From Kondoa subrosea (Eukaryota), in assembly GCA_039545335.1 (NCBI GenBank), contig BCIN01000004.1, forward strand, positions 1,602,925 to 1,631,949: a stretch of DNA of 29,025 bases, in the 5' to 3' direction. Under the pieces are notes generated by a model that saw only the letters and a program-made list of their open reading frames with translations, was not told the origin of the DNA and searched no databases. Shown here piece after piece: positions 2,345-29,025 of this stretch (positions are counted from its first letter, which is position 1; the number at the start of each line of letters is the position of its first letter). Position numbers and translations under genes: made by a program.

Positions 2345-4623
2345 ATGGAACATTTCCTTGATCCCGGTGAGTCACTTATAAGTTTACAGGCTCACCTCGA
2401 CTGACAGCAATACAGCTCTGTACAATTCCTGTACTCCATCTTATACAGTAGTTGGACAGGATGGTAGATCGTCGCGTCCAGGTATGAAGATTCCTTATTG
2501 ATGAAATAGGAGCCGATCAAATGAATTCAGCTACATGTCTCTATCCTTCATTAGACAGCTTCCCAATTAGCGCCAGCAATGGTACTCAAGCTCAACTCGC
2601 ACCTAGACTGGCGGCTCATCTAGCGATGCAAACTCAAGCTCCTTCATCGTCTCAGTTCGATACCTCTGACCAACGTTCGGCAGCATTGTCTGACAGCTCA
2701 GAATCCTACAATGCCGCACCCTCTTTGCTCCATAATACCCGGACTATGATCAATAGTACGGGAAGCGGTACTTTCACTCTCGATACTGGCAGTCCCGTAC
2801 CATCTTCAATTGGATCCCCCGTCTCAAGCTGGAATGTGTTCTCACCCCGAGAAAGCGTGAGCAGCTTTGGAACAGCTTCTCGTGGAGCTAGTCCGGCTCT
2901 AGGTAGTACCGAGCTTTTCAAAGCAGACCAAACTACTGCCACTTCAACTTATCTGGCTGCACCTTGGGACAGAAGTCCTGCTCCTATTCCTTACGCCTTC
3001 AACTTCCAATTTCCCTTCGCGCACCCAGCGGTCGCTCAACTTAGAGCTACGCAGCTGGCGCCAGTGAAAGCATCGAAAGCATCGAAAGCCAAATCTGAAC
3101 CCAACGTTGACCAACCTGTTGTCGATAAACTAGACCAGCCTATATACGGTGTAAGACCAGGACCAATGCCTTCAGCTGTCGCTTTGGCTGCCAATCCTTG
3201 GCTATGTCTGAAGCCCTACGGTATTGAGGTCGCTGCCTGGCAAGCCGATATCCCTATGCTTCCAGTTCAGCTTGCCATTCCTTCCGCTTATCAATCTACA
3301 ACGCCTAACACTTCTGCTGGATCTCAATCTGCTTCTATTGAAGATCTCTTGGCTCCTGACAGTCCTGCTCTGCCAGCGAAATCGAAAAAGCGGAAAGTCA
3401 AAGAATCTAAATCAAAGAAGATTGTTCTGCCTATGTCCACATCTTTCAATCAAAATCACGAAGTGCATCGCCCTCAGCTCACTTTCGAAGCTCTTATTGC
3501 ACAAGCTATTCTTACATCGGAACACAAGAAGCTACCTTTGGCCGATATTTACCAAGCTATTTCTGAGAGATATCCCTTCTATCAACTAGAGGGCGCAACT
3601 TCTACTGGATGGCAAAACTCAATTCGTCACAACTTATCTCTCAGAGACACCTTTGGCAAAGTTCCAAGAGAGTTGGGCAATCCTGGTAAAGGCGATTGCT
3701 GGGTCGTGCTCAAAGACAAAATGGACAAGTTTCACTTCATTGACGACGGCGAAGAATTCTTACAATCGCAACATGCAAACGAAATTGCGCCTCTTAACTT
3801 GATCGATAATACGAAGCAAGATCAGCGGGAAATCCCAGAGGAAGAGGAAGAGGAAGAAGGAGAGGATAAGGAAGAGGGAGAAGAAGACGATATGGCCATT
3901 GCAACTACACATGCTAAGAAAAAGCAGAAAACTGTTCATTTTGAATCTGATGAAGCGGTACCGGAGCAATTGTCGATTCCTGCTCATTGGAGAGCTCCAA
4001 ATCCGGATTTATCTTCTTCTGTCAAGACTCGTCAGACTCGACAGCGGTCTTTAGCTGCTCCTACTTCAATTAATGTATCATCAAATGCCGCTGCTGCAAT
4101 TCGACCTCTGACCCGTCGCAGCATGCTCAATCAAGTACTCAGTATGCCTACTCTCGATCAAACTGCTATGACTACTCGAACAGGAAGTTCAGTCAAGACT
4201 TTGAAGCGTAAACGAAATCCTATTCCGCAACCAGAACCTGAGCCAGAACCTGAAGAAGCGAGAGAAGAGAAGTCAGTATCAGGTAGCGATGAAGATGAAG
4301 ATGATGGTAGTAGCAGCTTGAGCGAAATCAGCAGCGATGATGATGATGGAGATGCGTACGTTCCAGAGGAGGAGGAAGCTGATGAACGACCAAAGAAGAA
4401 GACGAGAATCGCTTCTCCGATCAAATCTAACAAGAATATCCGTCGGGCTGGAGTTGCTACCAAGATTCGAAACGCCAATATCACCAATGCTGGCAATATC
4501 GAAAGTGTCTCTTCGGCAGCTCAAGTTCAGTCAAGTGGCATTTCAAATACCAACAAAGCACAATATATCGCTGGTGGTTGGGTGAACGGTGTCTTCAAAC
4601 GAGGGCAATGGGTCGGCAAATAG
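2345..4623 (+). CDS. Forkhead (winged-helix) transcription factor without a recognisable FHA domain (Hcm1/Sep1/Mei4-like architecture)
   Basis: Forkhead domain at ~3469-3710: RPQLTFEALIAQAILTSEHKKLPLADIYQAISERYPFY...GWQNSIRHNLSLRDTFGKVPRELGNPGKGDCW. Probable true start is ATG 2345 (caacATGG), with introns 2367-2415 and 2482-2530 joining in frame to the 2521-4623 ORF. Acidic tracts, a PEPEPEPE repeat and basic NLS-like stretches are present. Confidence 0.92.
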
Positions 4624-6271: not shown

Positions 6272-6653
6272 CTTGTTGGGAGCTTAGGAGAAACGAGCGG
6301 AGTAGAAATGATGGTTTAACAAACGGGAAAGCGGACTGTTTTCGCTTGTGTTTCTTGCAAGCGCTATCTGTATGAAGGCTACTCTAGACTACATTATGAC
6401 TAGCCCTGGCCTCGAGCGACATCACTCCAACTCTAGAGACAAAAGAGGCTTTCTTCGGACCATTCATCACCTGAGCGCAAGATCACAAGCTTCATCAGAA
6501 GTAGAGCACAAGACCAGTCGAAGAAAGAAGAGCGTCTCTTGCTTGGTCTTCCTATAGCTCTCGCTTTCGCTTTCAAAGTGTGAAGTTCGAAATCGAGCCA
6601 ATCTCGACTCTCACTCCTTTTCTGTTCAATCGAGTGTTTTCATCTGTGCAAAC

Positions 6654-9600
6654 ATGGAAGCTTTGCCTACAGGACCTGAGCCTGAGGTGTATCATTTTAC
6701 ATCCTCAAACGATATTCATCAGACTCCGAACGGAACCATCAAAAACGAATCGACTCCACCTGTCAGTAATATTGTGCCTACTACAGAACTCGCCAAACCA
6801 GCTGCTCGACCAGGGAAAGGCAGAAAATCAAAAGCTGAAGCCATTTCAAAGATTGCTCAGTCTTCCACTTCATCTTCATCTGGTACTCCTTTACAACCTA
6901 CTAATGGATCGAACGTCAAAGCCCCTATTCCAGTCAAACCGGTAGTACAAGAGATTCCTGGACCTGAATTGAATCCTGCTCGCAAAGCAATGGCTGCCAA
7001 AAAGGCTGCACCTTTAGATTTCACTACACTCAGAACTAGCGTACCAAGGGATATACCAAATCGGGAAGAAGGAAGATTGTTCGGTATACCTCATTGCCCA
7101 GTCTTCTATCCAACCATCGAGGAATTCTCAAAACCTATGGAATACATCGAAAGAGTTGCCAAAGAATCTGCTGGCGCTCATGGCATCGCAAAGATTGTTC
7201 CACCTGAAGGCTGGGCTCCACCTTTCTCATTAGATTCAGAAGTAAGTTTTGCCCTGTGTCATGCTGTTTCCATCTAAACTTGTTCTCCTAGACATTCCGC
7301 TTCAAAACTCGTTTGCAAAGACTCAACTCTATGGAAGCTTCTGCTAGAGCAAGTTTAAACTTTCTAGAGCAGCTCTATCTCTTTCACCGTCAGCAAGGCA
7401 ATGCTAAAGTCAGCATTCCAACCATTGATGGTAAGAATGTCGATTTGTGGAGATTGAGGAGAGAAGTCAATCAGCTTGGAGGTTATAGAGAAGTGAGACA
7501 TATATCTAGCTGGAAACGCTCAGAACTGATTTGTTATCCAAGGTATCTCTAAATCGAAAATGGTCACTTATAGCCAAAAACTTAGGCTTCGATCCTCAAG
7601 TCAACACTAGGATTATGACTGAACTCAAAAGAGCATTCTGCAAGATCATTCTTCCTTTCGAGCTCTACGTTGAGCGCATCAAGATTTCTGGCTTGAAAAT
7701 GACTACCGCTCCATCTAGCTCCAATTCTGCTTCACCTATTGCTGTCGGAATGGCTTCGAGAATGATGGGTGGTAGTGCAAAGAACGACTCTCCTGTGACG
7801 TTCGCCCAGGTTCAAGAAGCATCTGCCAAGTTGAATGAAGTTCTTAATACTGATGGTGAGCTGCTTTTCGCCCGCACATCTTTCGTCCTATGCTGAAAAT
7901 CGCTGGTCAGGATCTTCTGCTGAAGCCCAAATGATGGAGCCTTCCAAGTTCTCTGATCGACGCTTGCTTGATGCCGGGGAGGCTTGCGAAATCTGCCATC
8001 ATGACCACGATCATGTTTGTCTTACTTCTCTTGGTCGCGGTCCATGTGCTAATGATACCCTACAGCACAAGATGCTCCTCTGCGATGACTGTGATCGAGC
8101 TTATCATATGAAATGTCTTTCTCCGCCAGTCAGCAGTATTCCGAAAGGCGATTGGATTTGCGATGCATGTATCATCTCAACGGGAGCAGATTATGGATTC
8201 GAGACCGGGAAAGAATACAGTTTGGAAATGTATCGGATCAAGGCGGACGAGTTTAAGCGTCGTTGGGTAAAGAAGCATGGTTTGGATCAAGCACCTCTTC
8301 AAGATACAGAAAGTACTGGCGCTTCTTCGACTGAAGCGGAATATGCGGATGAGCTCAAGATGGAAGATCGGATAGAGAGAGAATTCTGGCGGTTGACTGA
8401 ATCTCAAACGGAAACTGTTGAAATCGAATATGGAGCGGACTTGCACTCAACTAAATATGGCAGGTTAGTCGTAGTCCTCACGCTGTAGACTCTCGATAGA
8501 ACCTTGCGAACAGCGGTTTCCCTTCGCTTGAGCGAGATCCCTTGGATGCTTACTCTCGAGATGGATGGAATTTGAACAATCTTCCCATCCTCAATGGCTC
8601 GCTCCTACGATATATCAGAAGCGACGTTGCTGGCATGACAAATCCTTGGCTATATGCTGGGATGGTCTTCTCTACTTTCGCTTGGCATAAGGAAGATCAC
8701 TATACCTACAGGTATGAATCATATAATAGTGCTGTGCCTTGGCTCAGTATGCCATAGTGTCAACTATCATCACCTTGGAGAGACCAAAACCTGGTATGGA
8801 GCTCCCGCGGAAGACGATGCTTTGCTGGAAGAAACGATTCGCAAAGCCGCACCAGAACTCTTTGAACAGCAACCCGATCTCATGTTCCAACTTGTTACTT
8901 TGATGAGTCCTGCACGTCTTAAGGCAGCTGGCGTGCGACTATCAGCGTGTGATCAACGGCCAGGCGAATTTATCGTGACTTTCCCTCAAGCATATCATTG
9001 TGAGTTTCGTGGTTGCCGTGACAAACCATGTATTGATTGCATCGCACAGCCGGTTTTAATCATGGCTTCAACATTTGCGAAGCAGTCAATGTGTGCTTGC
9101 CAGACTGGCTACCTCACGGTCTCGCTTGTGCGCAGCATTACAGAGATTTACGCCGGCTACCGGTCTTTTCTCACGACGAACTCCTCATGACTCTCTTTGC
9201 AAATGAGAAGAACCCTCGCTCGTCTCGATGGTTATATCCCTTCTTTAAAGAGATGATCGAAAGAGAATTGACGAGAAGGCAAACAGCAAGAGAATCTCTT
9301 GCCGATTTGACCGAAGAAGTGGATGACTCAGAATTGCCTGAAGATCAAACTCAATGCACTGTTTGCAAGTCTTACTGCTTCCTATCACAAATAGTGGCTA
9401 CGTCTGCACCAGAACGCGTGACTTGCTATGAACATGCAGCTCAAGTCCTCGGTGAAGCCAACAAGACTCTGCGATTGAGATATACAGACGACACGCTCCG
9501 ACAATTCTTGAACAGAGTCAAAGCACGCTCAGACAAGCTCGGCAGGCAAAGTATGAGCACGGAGGATAGCTTTGCGATCAATACCGGAGAGGCTCGTAAA

Positions 9601-9873
9601 TCTGGTCGAGTAGTAAGCATCGATACTTTTTTTGCAAAGAACCAATACTGATGATGTCTGCAGCGTATTCCAACAATTGCTGCAATGGAAGCTGCTGGAG
9701 AAGAAGTTATTCCTTTGGCTAAACGAAAGCTCATGGCTCAGCCTGGATACGACGGCTCTTCGCCAGCCAAACGATCTCGCGCACAGACGGAAGAAGAGAC
9801 TCCTGAAGTAGAAGAGCCAGCAGAACAAGTATCACAGATGGATACTATCATGTTAGATCCTGCGTTGATGTAG
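6654..9873 (+). CDS. JARID1/KDM5-family histone H3K4 demethylase (JmjN-ARID-PHD-JmjC-degenerate C5HC2), Jhd2/Lid2-like
   Basis: JmjN: CPVFYPTIEEFSKPMEYI...GIAKIVPPEGWAPPF. ARID: IPTIDGKNVDLWRLRREVNQLGGY...KWSLIA. PHD: CEIC...LLCDDCDRAYHMKCLSPP...GDWICDAC. JmjC: [61 protein letters not shown], with Fe(II) ligands HxE...H intact. Multiple GT-AG introns. Confidence 0.93.
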
Positions 9874-13137: not shown

Positions 13138-14272
13138 ATGAGCAGTGAGTGACTGGCGAGACACGTGTCATTGTACTCACAGCGATCAATAGATTGGTCT
13201 GGAGGTGGTTTCATGCAGTTCGCACTTTGCTTTTATTTCGCTAAGTGTACACAAATCTCATGCGACGATGCTAGAGATCAGCCAGGAGGCTCGCAATCTC
13301 CAGGTGGTGGGAAAGTGAGCTCCATCTCTGCTCTACTATTAACCTGTATTGCTCACCAGGGTGAATGCATAGTCAAAAGACAAGAACACTATTCGACCAG
13401 TTACTATTCGTCAGCTACTCGACGCAGAACAACCTCATCCAGATGCAGACTTCACAATCGACAACACCGAAGTTTCGCAAATCTCCTTCATTGCCAAAGT
13501 CCTCAACATCACTCGAGGCACAACAAACATTTCTTACACTGTAGAAGATGGAACTGGCTCCATTGATGTCCGCAGTTGGATTGAAAGTCAAGACGATGAT
13601 ACTGGAGTGGGCGAAGGCATAAATCAAGACACTTTGGTTAGGGTGCTAGGTGGAATCAAGCTCTTCAGCGGAAAGAGGTTCATCAACGCTTTGCATGTAC
13701 ATCCGGTAACGGACATGAACGAACAGCAGTTTCATCTTTTGGAAGTCATTCATGTACATTTGCTTAACACAAGAGGGCCGCCGGTACGTCTGGTTGAGCT
13801 TCTTTCGGTGTTGAAGCTGATGTCGCCTCTTTACCTCGAACAGATTGGAGCCGGATCAGCAAACGGAGCACCCAATCGCATTCAATCTACTAATCAAGGT
13901 CCATCAGATTATAACCAACCGGCGTATGCTGCAACTCTGTCTTTGTTGTCCAACAACCTGACACTGCTATGTATAGGAACAATCAAGCAGCGACAGGAGA
14001 TCAATGGGCTGATCTGGTCAATCCAATCCAACGGAAGATCATGGCCTATTTCACTCGTTTAGGTCCGACTGATACACTCAACTCGGAAGGAATTAGTGTT
14101 TCGGCTATTGCTAGATCGACGGGATTAGCGGAAAGCACAGTGCAGGATGAAGTGGAGAACTTGATTGGGGACGGTCATCTCTACTCTACGAGCGACGATA
14201 GCCAGTAAGTCTTCTAATCAGCCGTTAGCACTGCGTTGCTGATATTTCACTAGTGTATTACCTACTTCTTAA
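13138..14272 (+). CDS. RFA2: Replication protein A 32 kDa subunit
   Basis: N-terminal GGGFM...SQSPGG; OB fold TIRPVTIRQLLDAEQPHPDADFTID...SYTVEDGTGSIDVRSW...VRVLGGIKLFSGKRFINALHVHPVTDMNEQQFHLLEVIHVHL; C-terminal winged helix EGISVSAIAR...VENLIGDGHLYSTSDDSHVLPTS, TAA 14270-14272. Confidence 0.93.
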
Positions 14273-22183: not shown

Positions 22184-23383
22184 ATGCTCACAGCAGACCG
22201 GACCAATGAATTGAAGGAGGCAGTGAAAGCAAAGCAGAGCAATGCAGGCAAAGTGCAGGGCAAGAGGAAATCAGTAGAACGAGACATTTGGATGCTAGAA
22301 GCTGACAAAGTGGTCAGTCCCTTGCTTAGCTCATGCATGAGACTATTGAGCACACGTCTTGTTACAGAATGCCAATATCCTCGCATTGGCCAATTTCCTA
22401 CACCTCATCAGAAAGCCTTACCTCGATTCGAATACTTCGCACTTTGCAAATACGAGCAAGAATGCAGCAAGTATAGAAATGACCGGCTCACAAACAATCA
22501 AACATCTTTCAGAACGAGACAAGGACGAAATAGATGTCCAGGTCAAGTCCAATCTCAAGAAGTGTATGAATCAGATAAAGGAGCTGGAGCAAGCAGAGAA
22601 GAGTACGTTCTGATGCTGCCCTTGCGTTGATGATTGACGAATCCGTCATGTATAGTTCGACAAGATTACATCAAAGCTCAGCAACCAGCTCATGTTGCCC
22701 TCCCTCGATTCTTGCGCCCTATTCCTTCTGCACCTTCGCTTGATCCGGCTCAAGCACAGATAATCTCTGTCCGCTCTTCCATCATCTACTTTTTGACAAA
22801 TCGATTGTCCGCCGTCGGTCGTTCTTCGCAACAAGCGCAAGAGATCAGAGTGAAGAAGCAGCTTGATCGCCATTCCGCTCTTGGTTCTTCTCCTTCCACA
22901 TTAGGTCGAGAATGGGGAGAACAAATGGCTTCACAAAATCGTTCCAGTTCCAAAGGGAAATCGAAAGCCATTACGTCTGAAGATGATATTCCAGCTATCT
23001 TTGTTCCTTCTTCTTCCTCTTTTGCGACAGAAGAAGACGATACCCCTATCGAAGAACTTCTTTCTGAACAACAGATCCAACAATTTGAAGCCGAATCTTC
23101 TCTACTCCTTCGCGAAACGCAATCCCAGCTCGTTGCACTTCAAGCAGCCCAATCCTCTCTTCTCGAAATCTCAGCCTTGCAATCCGAATTGGTAGTGCAT
23201 CTGAGTCAGCAAAGCGAATTGACAGACAAATTGTGGGAAGACGCTCAATTTGTTAGTGGGAAAGTGGAGGAAGGGAATAAGCAGTTGAAGAAGGCCAAAG
23301 AGAGGAACAAGGATTCAAGAGTTTATCTGCTGGTTTTCCTCGTTGGCGCTTCCTTGACTTTGCTCTTTTTGGATCAGTATTAG
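22184..23383 (+). CDS. UFE1: ER t-SNARE syntaxin-18/Ufe1
   Basis: MLTADRTNELKEAV; FLHLIRKPYLD; LSERDKDEIDVQVKSNLKKCMNQIKELEQAE; LSEQQIQQFEAESSLL; SNARE helix LLEISALQSELVVHLSQQSELTDKL...VEEGNKQLKKAKER; C-terminal TM VYLLVFLVGASLTLLFLDQY. Two introns. Confidence 0.9.
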
Positions 23384-26558: not shown

Positions 26559-27635
26559 CTACAGCTGCCAAGTCATTTCAAGCAGCTCTTCATACTTGAA
26601 TTTCCTGCCTGTCTGGCCTTGAAAGTCTGCCAGCAGTCTTCTTTCTTTCGAGTCCTCGTTCTTTTCAGCATAAAACCGCTGCAGACGCATACATAGAAGC
26701 TGAGCATCGGTTTGAGAAATAAGCTGTCCAGATCCTGAATCATTTGCTGTGATTTCACCACGAAGCAGAACGATACCATGCGAAATGGCAAGATCAGTGT
26801 AATGTGTTAGAATGAGGGCTGGTTGAGCAAAAGTCCCATGGNTCTTGTACGATGCTAAAGAAGTAAAGAGAACAGTAGTCGTTTCTGGCGTGCTTGCCAG
26901 CATGGTTGAAGGAGAAGGAACGAATGCCCATTCGAGAAAGATGTTTTCCGCTCCAGTTGTTCCGTCAGATATTTCTCGAGGCAGAGGAAGGATGAAGCGC
27001 AGATTCTCGCGAGCTACTGCAGTCATTCGCCTGTAGGTTTCGACTGGGATGACGGCGCCTAGTTTCGTTGTTGATTTGGCTGAAGCATGGTAAGCTTTCC
27101 AAAGGGCAGAGATCTCCTCGGCTGAAGGTGCAGGATGCCTTGTGAGAAGCTTTTGTAGGTCTGTGATGTCCGAAAGAGGCTGTAGATACCTTGAGCTCTG
27201 CTGAAATTGGATAGCGCAATGCTGACCTTGATGCCGCTTTTGCTGTTCGCTTGATCTATCCCGCTAGGCAATGAAGGAGCTACAACAGCAGAAGGAATCT
27301 GTTGCAAAGATGAATCGCTTGATAGCTTGGGAGCCGAACTGAATGGCTTGATTGGTTTCACTTTTTCAGCTTGACGAGCCTTGTCCTTCAACGTCTGCAA
27401 GTCTACTCCTTTCCTAGCATCCAAATTGAGCAAGACTTTTACCAGATAATGGATTCGCCAACGCCTTCGCAGCAGCTTCCAGCGCCTGTCCATACTTCTG
27501 TGCATACTGTTGCCGTCTTTGAGCTATCCTTTCCCGTGAACCTATCAATGCCTCTGGTACTTCAGTAGTCAGATATCGGAAGCTGCTGCATCTTTGGCAA
27601 GATAGAGCTGGTCGATATAACAGGCTTGTGATCAT
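26559..27635 (-). CDS. ATP11: Mitochondrial F1-ATPase assembly chaperone Atp11
   Basis: Presequence-like N-terminus, KYGQALEAAAKA/KGVD, GIK/PLSDITDLQKL...EISALWKAYH...LGAVIPVETYRRM...FILPLPRE...VLFTSLASYKxHGTFAQPALILTHYTDLAISHGIVLLRGEI...AQLLCMRLQRFY. Two introns; one N base. Confidence 0.93.
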
Positions 27636-27895
27636 CGTGTCTTGACAACCCGCTGATTGGCTTCAAGCTACAAGAATTGGCCTTCTGCAACTTGCTTATT
27701 GGTGAACAGAGTCGTCAGCAGTCAAGCATGGTCATAATACAGTCTACACAAACGAATCCGTCTCGATTGCTACTAAGACTTCCGCTGGCTTGCTCTCGCT
27801 CGAATTCACTTTCCACTCTTTGCACTTGTCCAAGCTTCTATAACGAATTAATCCAGCTCGCCCTACGCTTACTGTTGACTGTTCCACTTGAGCGA

Positions 27896-27926
27896 CTGCT
27901 TGATGCTTTTCCTTAGAAGACATGCA
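27896..27926 (+). repeat. 31-bp dispersed direct repeat, copy 1
   Basis: ctgcttgatgcttttccttagaagacatgca, 29/31 identical to 28937-28967. Confidence 0.85.
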
Positions 27927-28010
27927 AATACTGCTCGCTTACACTCTACTTCTCGATGCTTGCTGACGGGCAGCTCGCACTCTTTTTTCCCTTTCCACCG
28001 AACTGGCACA

Positions 28011-28110
28011 NNNNNNNNNNNNNNNNNNNNNNNNNNNNNNNNNNNNNNNNNNNNNNNNNNNNNNNNNNNNNNNNNNNNNNNNNNNNNNNNNNNNNNNNNN
28101 NNNNNNNNNN
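28011..28110. other. Assembly gap (100 N) flanked by an identical 95-bp sequence (27916-28010 = 28111-28205)
   Basis: The same sequence gaagacatgc...gaactggcaca appears on both sides of the N run. Confidence 0.95.
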
Positions 28111-28936
28111 GAAGACATGCAAATACTGCTCGCTTACACTCTACTTCTCGATGCTTGCTGACGGGCAGCTCGCACTCTTTTTTCCCTTTCCACCGAACTG
28201 GCACAAGATGCTTGCTTCTCCTGCTCCCGGTCTACTTGCACCCTTTGAAGTCAGACTGGAAAGCACTGCTACCGAAGTTGGGACGCAAGACCCTGAGCTC
28301 AAGCTAGCTCTATGCGACTTTCTCTCTACCTTTTTGCAAAGGCACCTCTCGCTGGCTTCTGCTCTGCTATCTCGACAGACTGTTTTATGCTCAGCCCTGT
28401 CTTACTCTCGCTCGCTCGAACGCGGCACTTGACTGAAGCTGAACACTAGGAGCTAGACCTACTCTTTGGCAAGCTGTTGACTGACCTTCGTTTTGCTTTA
28501 CCACTTGCTACTTCGCTATTTGATCTGACCCAAAGAGATAGCTTTCAGCTAGATTTTCTTCCTCTGTCTTGCCAGGCTTGACTATGACTTGCTACTTTGT
28601 TTGTGATATCTTGAAGCTTTGTTTCGCTCAAGCACGAACTTGAAGGCCCTGCGCTTTCAGGCAGGAGCAAGTGCAGGACACGATCGAAGACTGCCTAAAG
28701 CACAGATCTTACTAGTCAAGGGACTTTGTTGTTTTTTTCCAAGCTTTTGCAAAGAAAGAGTTACGCTAAAAGCAACTTGACCTTGACTTCGACCTTTGCT
28801 TACAAGCTTGCAACCTACTCTTATTGGGAGGTCTAGCTTGCAAGGAAAGCACTGCTCGAGCCTGAAGACTGCTTGCCGCTATTCGGGTCTTGACTGACTC
28901 TCGGGCCCTTGCTCTTTCACCTGGATCGCTAACTCT

Positions 28937-28967
28937 CTGCTTGATGTTTTTCCTTGGAAGACATGCA
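28937..28967 (+). repeat. 31-bp dispersed direct repeat, copy 2
   Basis: ctgcttgatgtttttccttggaagacatgca, 3 bp before the terminal tandem array. Confidence 0.85.
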
Positions 28968-28970
28968 GGG

Positions 28971-29025
28971 TTATGAAGAGTTAGCGACAGTTATGAAGAG
29001 TTATGAAGAGTTAGCGAGAGTTATG
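28971..29025 (+). repeat. Terminal tandem array of 10-nt units (TTATGAAGAG / TTAGCGASAG), possibly telomeric
   Basis: TTATGAAGAG TTAGCGACAG TTATGAAGAG TTATGAAGAG TTAGCGAGAG TTATG, running to the end of the window. Confidence 0.85.

What the first reader, a model, noticed from the sequence alone, without database searches (positions are those of the whole stretch)
28968..29025. Candidate non-canonical, two-variant 10-nt telomere repeat at the end of the sequence
Seen: the window ends in 5.5 units of a 10-nt repeat with two interspersed types, TTATGAAGAG (A) and TTAGCG(A)SAG (B), in the order A-B-A-A-B-A. It is entered through GGG-TTA and is G-rich/C-poor on the strand running toward the end. 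It follows ~1.3 kb with no recognisable gene. Known: telomeres run G-rich 5'->3' to the chromosome end, most basidiomycetes studied use TTAGGG-like repeats, and long or variable units are best known from ascomycete yeasts. Inference: this may be a chromosome end with an unusual heterogeneous repeat, e.g. a ~20-nt telomerase template copied partly or fully. A plain minisatellite that broke the assembly is equally possible.
Basis: partly seen in the sequence, partly recalled or inferred. Interest (0 to 1): 0.7.

Follow-up and report, generated by a model that had tools for sequence, protein, structure and literature searches.

The report
20-base telomere with candidate telomerase RNA
The window ends at a real chromosome tip of a basidiomycete fungus whose telomere is a 20-base repeat instead of the usual TTAGGG, and the genome holds both the telomerase enzyme gene and a likely gene for the RNA that spells this repeat.

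Summary
Confirmed. The array (28970-29025) is the end of contig C4. The same repeat caps 6 of 54 contig ends, always G-strand outward; none shows TTAGGG. The unit is 20 nt (GAGTTA-TGAA-GAGTTA-GCGA): 22 of 25 neighbouring 10-mers alternate, and it has no GG. The host groups with Pucciniomycotina, near Mixia. A TERT gene with its RT motifs lies on C3. New here: a single-copy telomerase-RNA candidate on C5, between LYS2-like and YSH1-like genes. It has a 24-nt template, a boundary hairpin directly 5' of it, an enclosing helix, a U-loop pseudoknot and a P6/P6.1-like junction. Two internal telomeric inserts begin after bases matching this template's 3' flank. The RNA is predicted from one sequence: no RNA data, homologues or Rfam match. 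The scan noted this telomere before at another end (e1-7523200). Verdict: a new variant of a telomerase telomere, an ascomycete-style long repeat in a phylum described as TTAGGG-like.

The parts
28970..29025 (+). Telomeric array at the contig end, units A-B-A-A-B-A(half) of the 20-nt repeat GAGTTATGAAGAGTTAGCGA; one B unit has a G>C change at 28988
   Evidence: the same repeat at C1L, C2L, C2R, C3L, C6L
28937..28969 (+). Telomere-addition junction: a second copy of subtelomeric sequence (94% to 27896-27926) cut off after GAAGACATGCA, then AGG into the array
   Evidence: (family D8)
26565..28897 (.). Subtelomeric repeated segment, shared in whole or part (about 72-92% identity) with all five other telomere-bearing ends, with the C11 right end, and with copies on C5 and inside C6
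   Evidence: blastn
26559..27523 (-). ATP11 (F1-ATPase assembly factor) gene copy inside the subtelomeric repeat; its 5' part is in another frame (intron or frameshift, not resolved)
   Evidence: PF06644 E=3.4e-61; 10 genome matches
27916..28205 (.). 100-N scaffold gap (28011-28110) flanked by an exact 95-nt duplicate; most likely an assembler artefact
   Evidence: family D1; the same 95-nt overlaps join other contigs

Best explanation
This is a telomerase-made telomere with a 20-nt unit. SHOWN: one repeat caps six contig ends in telomere polarity; a TERT gene is present; a single-copy intergenic locus (G000:C5:193679-193702, RNA on the minus strand) carries one unit plus 4 nt. INFERRED: that locus is the telomerase RNA, about 1.1-1.3 kb long. 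The DNA end ...TTATGA pairs with the template's 3' UCAU, and 20 nt are added up to a UUCG-capped boundary hairpin, giving A-B alternation. Because GAGTTA occurs twice in the template, an end that leaves early can re-pair in the other register and give A-A or B-B (3 of 25 neighbours). The lowest three pairs of the boundary hairpin overlap the template's 5' end and could cause such early stops. At fresh breaks the primer can also pair with the RNA bases just 3' of the template, which would explain two internal inserts. INFERRED origin: a 10-nt unit TTA-N4-GAG, built like Yarrowia's TTAGTCAGGG, was duplicated in the template and the halves diverged.
For: Ends: 6 of 54 carry the array, all G-strand outward; 21-mer 11 of 11 terminal, control 0; no TTAGGG array found. 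C2 has it at both ends, and C6R overlaps C4L by about 3.5 kb, so C6+C4 would also run telomere to telomere. Assembled contigs of the source runs: 486 and 72 pieces laid, share running on into unlike DNA 0 and 0.01 (same sample, not independent). Alternation 22 of 25, p=8e-5 against random order. TERT at C3:~1.766-1.771 Mb: Telomerase_RBD E=6e-19, TERT_C and weak RVT_1, motifs A (DVQSCFD), B' (GIPQG) and C (VDD) read. Template candidate: of 15 exact 15-mer matches 12 are terminal and 3 internal. Of 9 internal sites tested only C5 has a hairpin directly 5' of the template (-16.7 kcal/mol, z -3.05; best of 150 random windows -16.6). It has an 11-bp enclosing helix that extends by further helices, a pseudoknot with a CUUUUAG loop just before the enclosing helix (0 of 120 random windows), and a three-way junction whose P6.1-like stem forms unprompted with pair probability 0.87-0.89. 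It is single copy, and 6 of 6 frames tested in the gap have no Pfam match. Junctions: the C2:650 insert follows GTTGATC, identical to the 7 nt flanking the C5 template, and the C1 homologue without the insert shows that the break lay there. The C3:1936031 insert follows TTGGTC, 5 of 6.
Against: The RNA model rests on one sequence: no homologue, so no covariation, and no Rfam telomerase match. The enclosing helix alone is not strongly significant: 7 of 150 random windows have an 11-bp or longer helix and 11 of 150 reach its duplex energy. None of 16 consecutive 150-nt windows across the locus folds below z -1.5; the z -4.1 and -4.9 folds are for windows I chose after looking, and the pseudoknot criteria were also set afterwards. 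The P6.1-like loop is UACGU and misses the NUNGN consensus. 3 of 3 terminal junctions compared show at most one flank base in common. C2:1399274 has a longer perfect match (25 nt against 24), though it lies in a short gap between divergent genes with no hairpin. The YSH1-like start leaves only about 150-200 nt for a promoter (my reading). Only 40-110 nt of each array is assembled. TERT exons were read one by one, not joined into a gene model.
Confidence: 0.85

Rival explanations
1. A true telomerase telomere, but the C5 site is only another internal telomeric insert or protein-binding site, and the real RNA gene is unassembled or is the C2:1399274 site.
For: Several internal telomere-like sites exist. 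The shared flank GTTGATC would also arise if C5 were itself an insert made by an RNA with that flank. The assembly lacks some sequence, e.g. no 5.8S rRNA match.
Against: C5 alone, of 9 sites, has the boundary hairpin abutting the template, with pseudoknot and junction in the expected order inside a 2-kb single-copy gap with no Pfam match. Its match is exactly one unit plus a short overlap.
Confidence: 0.09
2. Terminal repeats kept by recombination without telomerase (ALT-like), as in Microstromatales yeasts.
For: Non-TTAGGG ends of this kind are documented in basidiomycetes (PMC13234504). Pfam searches for POT1, TRF and TPP1 found nothing, but these had no positive control and say little.
Against: Microstromatales lack TERT and have mostly end-specific motifs. 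Here one motif caps 6 of 6 capped ends, TERT motifs are present, arrays start at different points of the subtelomere as in de novo addition, and a template-like locus exists.
Confidence: 0.03
3. An internal minisatellite that breaks the assembly, or repeats carried by a telomere-seeking retroelement.
For: Short-read assemblies do break at tandem repeats (established knowledge). An earlier scan note reports an endonuclease-less Penelope-like element in this genome (e1-7523193, not checked).
Against: A breaking internal repeat would leave ends of both polarities; 6 of 6 are G-strand outward. Both ends of C2 carry it. Laid contigs hardly run from the array into unlike DNA. The bases next to the array differ at each end, so no common element terminus is seen.
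Confidence: 0.03

Closest known systems
Long or irregular telomerase repeats of Saccharomycotina, e.g. Yarrowia lipolytica TTAGTCAGGG (PMC7857110, passages) and Candida/Metschnikowia motifs of over 20 nt (PMC10100673, passage)
   Same: Long unit templated by telomerase; heterogeneity by alignment in different registers or by reading into the boundary element is described for S. cerevisiae and S. pombe. Each half here has the TTA + 4 nt + G-R-G layout of the Yarrowia repeat.
   Different: Other phylum, so presumably an independent origin (inferred). The unit is a diverged dimer of two 10-mers and has no GG.
Basidiomycete TTAGGG-type telomeres and short variants: TTAGGG in Rhodotorula, TTAGG in Rhodosporidiobolus (PMC12800127); TTAGGA, TTAGTG, TTGGA, TTAGGGGG; TAAC(4,5) in Kwoniella (PMC11185503)
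   Same: Same phylum, one shared motif on all ends, telomerase present. Malassezia TTAGTG is a precedent for a GG-free unit.
   Different: The variants in these passages are 5-8 nt; this unit is 20 nt.
Telomerase RNAs of Ustilago maydis (PMC9564094, passages), Malassezia (PMC12506658, passages) and Neurospora (PMC3592445, passages)
   Same: Predicted order: enclosing helices, boundary hairpin, template, pseudoknot, distal P5/P6/P6.1 junction; size near the ~1,300 nt of U. maydis.
   Different: 24-nt template; P6.1-like loop off consensus; no room seen for an upstream Emi1-type ORF (a YSH1-like gene starts divergently close by); other subphylum; not validated.
Telomerase-negative Microstromatales telomeres (PMC13234504, abstract and sections 4, 20, first part of 22)
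   Same: Basidiomycete yeasts without TTAGGG.
   Different: Those lack TERT and Tpp1 and have mostly end-specific motifs; here the motif is common to all capped ends and TERT is present.

Membership tests
Telomerase-maintained telomere | Tandem repeat at several chromosome ends | tested here: met
   6 of 54 contig ends, both ends of C2
Telomerase-maintained telomere | G-richer strand runs 5'->3' to the end | tested here: met
   6 of 6; G18 against C3 in the window array
Telomerase-maintained telomere | No unique DNA beyond the array | tested here: inconclusive
   Assembly ends there; laid contigs run on into unlike DNA in a share of 0 and 0.01, but these are short contigs of the same sample
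Telomerase-maintained telomere | TERT gene with TRBD and RT catalytic motifs | tested here: met
   read exon by exon
Telomerase-maintained telomere | Bal31 sensitivity, 3' overhang, loss on telomerase deletion | not testable with these tools
   bench work
Fungal telomerase RNA | Single-copy template of one repeat plus an alignment region | tested here: met
   24 nt = 20 + 4 at C5:193679-193702; single copy
Fungal telomerase RNA | Boundary helix directly 5' of the template | tested here: met
   11-bp UUCG hairpin; 1 of 9 sites; none of 150 random windows as stable; predicted only
Fungal telomerase RNA | Core-enclosing helix | tested here: inconclusive
   11 bp plus 8, 4 and 8 bp helices; 7 of 150 and 11 of 150 random windows do as well on single measures
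Fungal telomerase RNA | Pseudoknot with a U-rich loop and triple helix | tested here: inconclusive
   Candidate found; 0 of 120 controls with criteria set afterwards; triples and covariation untested
Fungal telomerase RNA | CR4/5 three-way junction with a 4-bp P6.1 stem and 5-nt loop | tested here: inconclusive
   Junction and GAGU/ACUC stem with a 5-nt loop appear in the free fold, pair probability 0.87-0.89; P6a pairs only 0.15-0.38
Fungal telomerase RNA | P6.1 loop consensus NUNGN (PMC3592445) | tested here: not met
   No 4-bp stem with a NUNGN loop in the distal region; the loop is UACGU, with G4 kept and U2 not
Fungal telomerase RNA | Expressed and bound by TERT | not testable with these tools
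   Needs RNA data or biochemistry
Canonical TTAGGG-type basidiomycete telomere | TTAGGG or a one-base variant | tested here: not met
   0 matches at 1 mismatch; none at 54 ends read
Microstromatales-type telomerase-free telomere | No TERT; end-specific motifs | tested here: not met
   TERT present; one motif at 6 of 6 capped ends

The most novel reading that the evidence does not exclude
A Pucciniomycotina lineage has, independently of budding yeasts, evolved a long telomerase template by duplicating a Yarrowia-like 10-nt unit into a GG-free 20-mer that cannot form G-quadruplexes. The C5 locus is its telomerase RNA, the first I could find for this subphylum. The genome records pairing of broken ends with the RNA beyond the template, and the TTAGGG-binding shelterin of basidiomycetes must have been retuned or replaced.
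Probability: 0.6. Interest if true: 0.75.

Novelty: new variant of a known kind. Interest (0 to 1): 0.62.

Why it matters
Basidiomycetes are described as the fungi that kept human-like TTAGGG telomeres, and the non-TTAGGG case I read in detail lost telomerase. A 20-nt unit with telomerase retained would be a second, independent fungal run of the repeat expansion seen in budding yeasts. That makes the step-by-step model of template evolution, and the co-evolution of telomere-binding proteins, testable outside Ascomycota. The unusual template also gives a seed for finding telomerase RNAs in Pucciniomycotina, where my search found none reported. In practice, TTAGGG-based telomere finders will miss these ends.

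Tried and rejected
Metagenome scan for the 24-nt template: 0 matches. YSH1-based search for syntenic relatives: the best locus (72%) has only 587 nt upstream and the other 79 are 62% or less, so no RNA homologue was sought there beyond reading the table. Sequencing runs: no RNA holder listed; 2 DNA contig sets from one sample that may be the source. Rfam: no telomerase family on 9 loci or on the candidate alone; only sub-threshold hairpin matches. Pfam searches for POT1, TRF and TPP1 in the genome: 0 candidates each with no positive control, uninformative for an intron-rich genome. 5.8S rRNA not found, so no rRNA-based placement. An RPA32 fragment gave only distant hits. Other template candidates were rejected for lack of a boundary hairpin (8 of 9). 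C2:1399274 sits between a divergent protease-like and an adenylosuccinate-synthetase-like gene, and C1:3311047 matches only 20 nt (gene names are my reading of the translations). GGG-TTA as a relic of TTAGGG was rejected (0 of 5 other ends). Depth figures are sums over many contigs and were not used as copy number. Literature: in the 20 listed of 56 papers holding any of six motif strings, the four strings of 13-14 nt had 0 occurrences, and the 10-mer hits were on unrelated topics. 'Telomerase RNA' with 'Pucciniomycotina' gave 1 paper, where the name is in a tree legend. Searches gave nothing on this repeat. Supplement searches of TeloBase and TelFinder had 0 hits, but even the word Basidiomycota was absent from the TelFinder file, so the motif tables were probably not seen. 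The TeloBase database itself and the U. maydis supplement could not be read and may bear on novelty and on the structure comparison.

Full report
1. Observation. The window is G000:C4:1602925-1631949 and ends at the contig's last base. The array is C-poor (G18, A19, T16, C3) and holds no GG. In the window alone the repeat is only modestly above chance (4 of 100 shuffles do as well); the genome-wide picture decides.

2. It is a telomere. A 21-mer spanning both unit types matches 11 times in the 18.9-Mb assembly, each time within 100 nt of a contig end; the reversed control matches 0 times. I read all 54 contig ends. Six carry the array (C1L, C2L, C2R, C3L, C4R, C6L), all with the G-richer strand running outward, and none carries TTAGGG; a TTAGGG pattern with one mismatch has no match in the genome (with the tool's caution on simple repeats). 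C2 (3.4 Mb) is capped at both ends. C6R overlaps C4L over about 3.5 kb, so the window's chromosome is probably C6+C4, about 3.0 Mb, capped at both ends. Several uncapped ends are overlaps with other contigs (C3R/C9R and C7R/C10L; C1R/C11L read by eye). Assembled contigs of two runs of one sample, possibly the source, pile on the array as hundreds of short branching pieces, with a share of 0 and 0.01 running on into unlike DNA. This agrees but is not independent.

3. The unit is 20 nt. Among complete neighbouring 10-mers at the six ends, 22 of 25 alternate; 2 are A-A and 1 is B-B (p = 8e-5 against random order). C3L shows 95 nt of strict alternation. The unit is GAGTTA-TGAA-GAGTTA-GCGA. The GGG before the first TTA is peculiar to this end, where a subtelomeric repeat copy was cut off.

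4. Host. The best named hits of a YSH1 exon are Mixia and Microbotryomycetes at 57-59%. In a tree of 26 rows (24 chosen from the 120 listed hits, one metagenome locus and the query) it groups with Mixia and three unnamed sequences at 100/99. This is one gene fragment and Mixia is a long branch, so I claim only Pucciniomycotina.

5. Telomerase. A TERT gene lies on C3, minus strand, at about 1.766-1.771 Mb: Telomerase_RBD E = 6e-19, TERT_C over its cut-off and a weak RVT_1 hit. Exon translations show DVQSCFD, GIPQG and VDD, which I read as RT motifs A, B' and C (motif names from my own knowledge).

6. Candidate telomerase RNA. Of 15 exact matches to a 15-mer of the repeat, 12 are terminal and 3 internal; other patterns added more internal sites. 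I compared 9 internal sites. Only C5:193679-193702 has a strong hairpin abutting the RNA-5' side of the match (11 bp, UUCG loop, -16.7 kcal/mol; the best of 150 random windows was -16.6). The match is 24 nt, one unit plus 4. It lies in a gap of about 2 kb between a LYS2-like gene and a divergent YSH1-like gene, is single copy, and the six frames tested there have no Pfam match. An 11-bp helix, continued by helices of 8, 4 and 8 bp, joins the 5' flank to a site 376 nt downstream. Just before it lies a pseudoknot with stems of 5 and 10 bp and the loop CUUUUAG (0 of 120 controls). About 450 nt further on, a three-way junction with a long hairpin and a 4-bp stem with a 5-nt loop forms in the free fold, and an AATAAA follows. 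This is the order described for Neurospora, Ustilago and Malassezia RNAs (passages).

Against it: there are no homologues, RNA data or Rfam match. The enclosing helix alone is matched by 7 and 11 of 150 controls. None of 16 fixed 150-nt windows folds below z -1.5. The low z-scores and the pseudoknot criteria were chosen after looking. The small loop is UACGU and fails the NUNGN consensus.

7. Junction evidence. An internal telomeric insert at C2:650-674 follows GTTGATC. The homologous sequence on C1 has the same bases followed by non-telomeric DNA, so the break lay there. GTTGATC is the 7 nt that flank the C5 template on its RNA-3' side and are not part of the repeat. A second insert at C3:1936031 follows TTGGTC, 5 of 6 with a G-U-compatible mismatch. 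Three terminal junctions compared in the same register share at most one flank base. The result ties the template's flank to C5-like sequence, but does not by itself exclude that C5 is a further insert.

8. Mechanism. Shown: terminal position, polarity, 20-nt period, TERT motifs, one template-sized single-copy locus. Inferred: telomerase pairs the end ...TTATGA with the template's 3' UCAU and adds 20 nt up to the boundary hairpin. The two GAGTTA copies allow re-pairing in the other register, which gives A-A and B-B. The lowest three pairs of the hairpin overlap the template end and may cause early stops; alignment in different registers and reading into the boundary are described for S. cerevisiae and S. 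pombe (PMC7857110). The halves TTA-TGAA-GAG and TTA-GCGA-GAG resemble Yarrowia's TTA-GTCA-GGG, which suggests expansion to a 10-mer and then duplication within the template. This is inference from one genome.

9. Comparison and novelty. It works like, and passes the testable features of, a telomerase telomere. It is not the TTAGGG type, nor the telomerase-free Microstromatales type (PMC13234504). Basidiomycete motifs in the passages I read are 5-8 nt; the Malassezia preprint reports four variants and an intermingled 7-mer (PMC10055393, passages). The 13-14-nt motif strings had no occurrence in the 20 papers listed, and no Pucciniomycotina telomerase RNA paper turned up. The library lacks most subscription papers, and the TeloBase and TelFinder tables were probably not seen. 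Membership of the C5 locus in the telomerase RNA family is likely but not proven, and one defining consensus is not met.

10. Verdict. Real telomere about 0.97; telomerase-templated with C5 as the RNA gene about 0.85; a new variant of a known kind; interest 0.62.

Noticed in passing
window 26559-27523; G000 C1:5332, C2:1115 and 1455, C2:3393575, C3:1412, C5:1489919, C6:5404, C6:1215673, C11:346242: ATP11 (mitochondrial F1 assembly factor) has 10 matches in the genome; 9 lie within 25 kb of a contig end, and all six telomere-bearing ends have a copy within 6 kb. Some copies carry stops, and the one deep-internal match is a fragment. A search for ATP11 with subtelomeric and multiple copies found no paper.
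   Followed up: partly
G000:C2:650-674 (L014): Internal telomeric insert in inverted orientation joining two subtelomeric pieces, preceded by an expanded GGTTGAT repeat (two copies on C1, four here).
   Followed up: partly
G000 C1:3311047, C2:1399243-1399274, C3:1936031, C2:3396105 (L017:7417), and weaker sites on C1, C2, C5, C7, C8: Further internal telomere-like sites of 13-25 nt, some in short intergenic gaps; possible old inserts or binding sites of a telomere protein.
   Followed up: partly
G000 contig ends: Overlaps suggest joins C6R-C4L, C1R-C11L, C3R-C9R and C7R-C10L, hence few large chromosomes of about 3-4.6 Mb. C13/C14 and C15/C16 are near-duplicate small contigs, probably collapsed repeats.
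   Followed up: no
window 28011-28110: 100-N gap flanked by an exact 95-nt duplicate (27916-28010 and 28111-28205), most likely an assembler artefact.
   Followed up: yes
window 28927-28940: A short reverse-strand piece of the telomere repeat (TCGCTAACTCTC) about 30 nt before the array; may be chance.
   Followed up: no
G000:C3:96-111 (L015): The innermost part of the C3L array has an irregular unit (GAGTTA-TC-GAGTTA) not explained by the two-register model.
   Followed up: no
window 1-26500: Ordinary intron-rich fungal genes: a Forkhead protein at 2488-4623, RPA32 at about 13373-14062, and by my reading of the translations a JmjC/PHD demethylase at about 6500-9700 and a SNARE-like protein at 22634-23383.
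   Followed up: no
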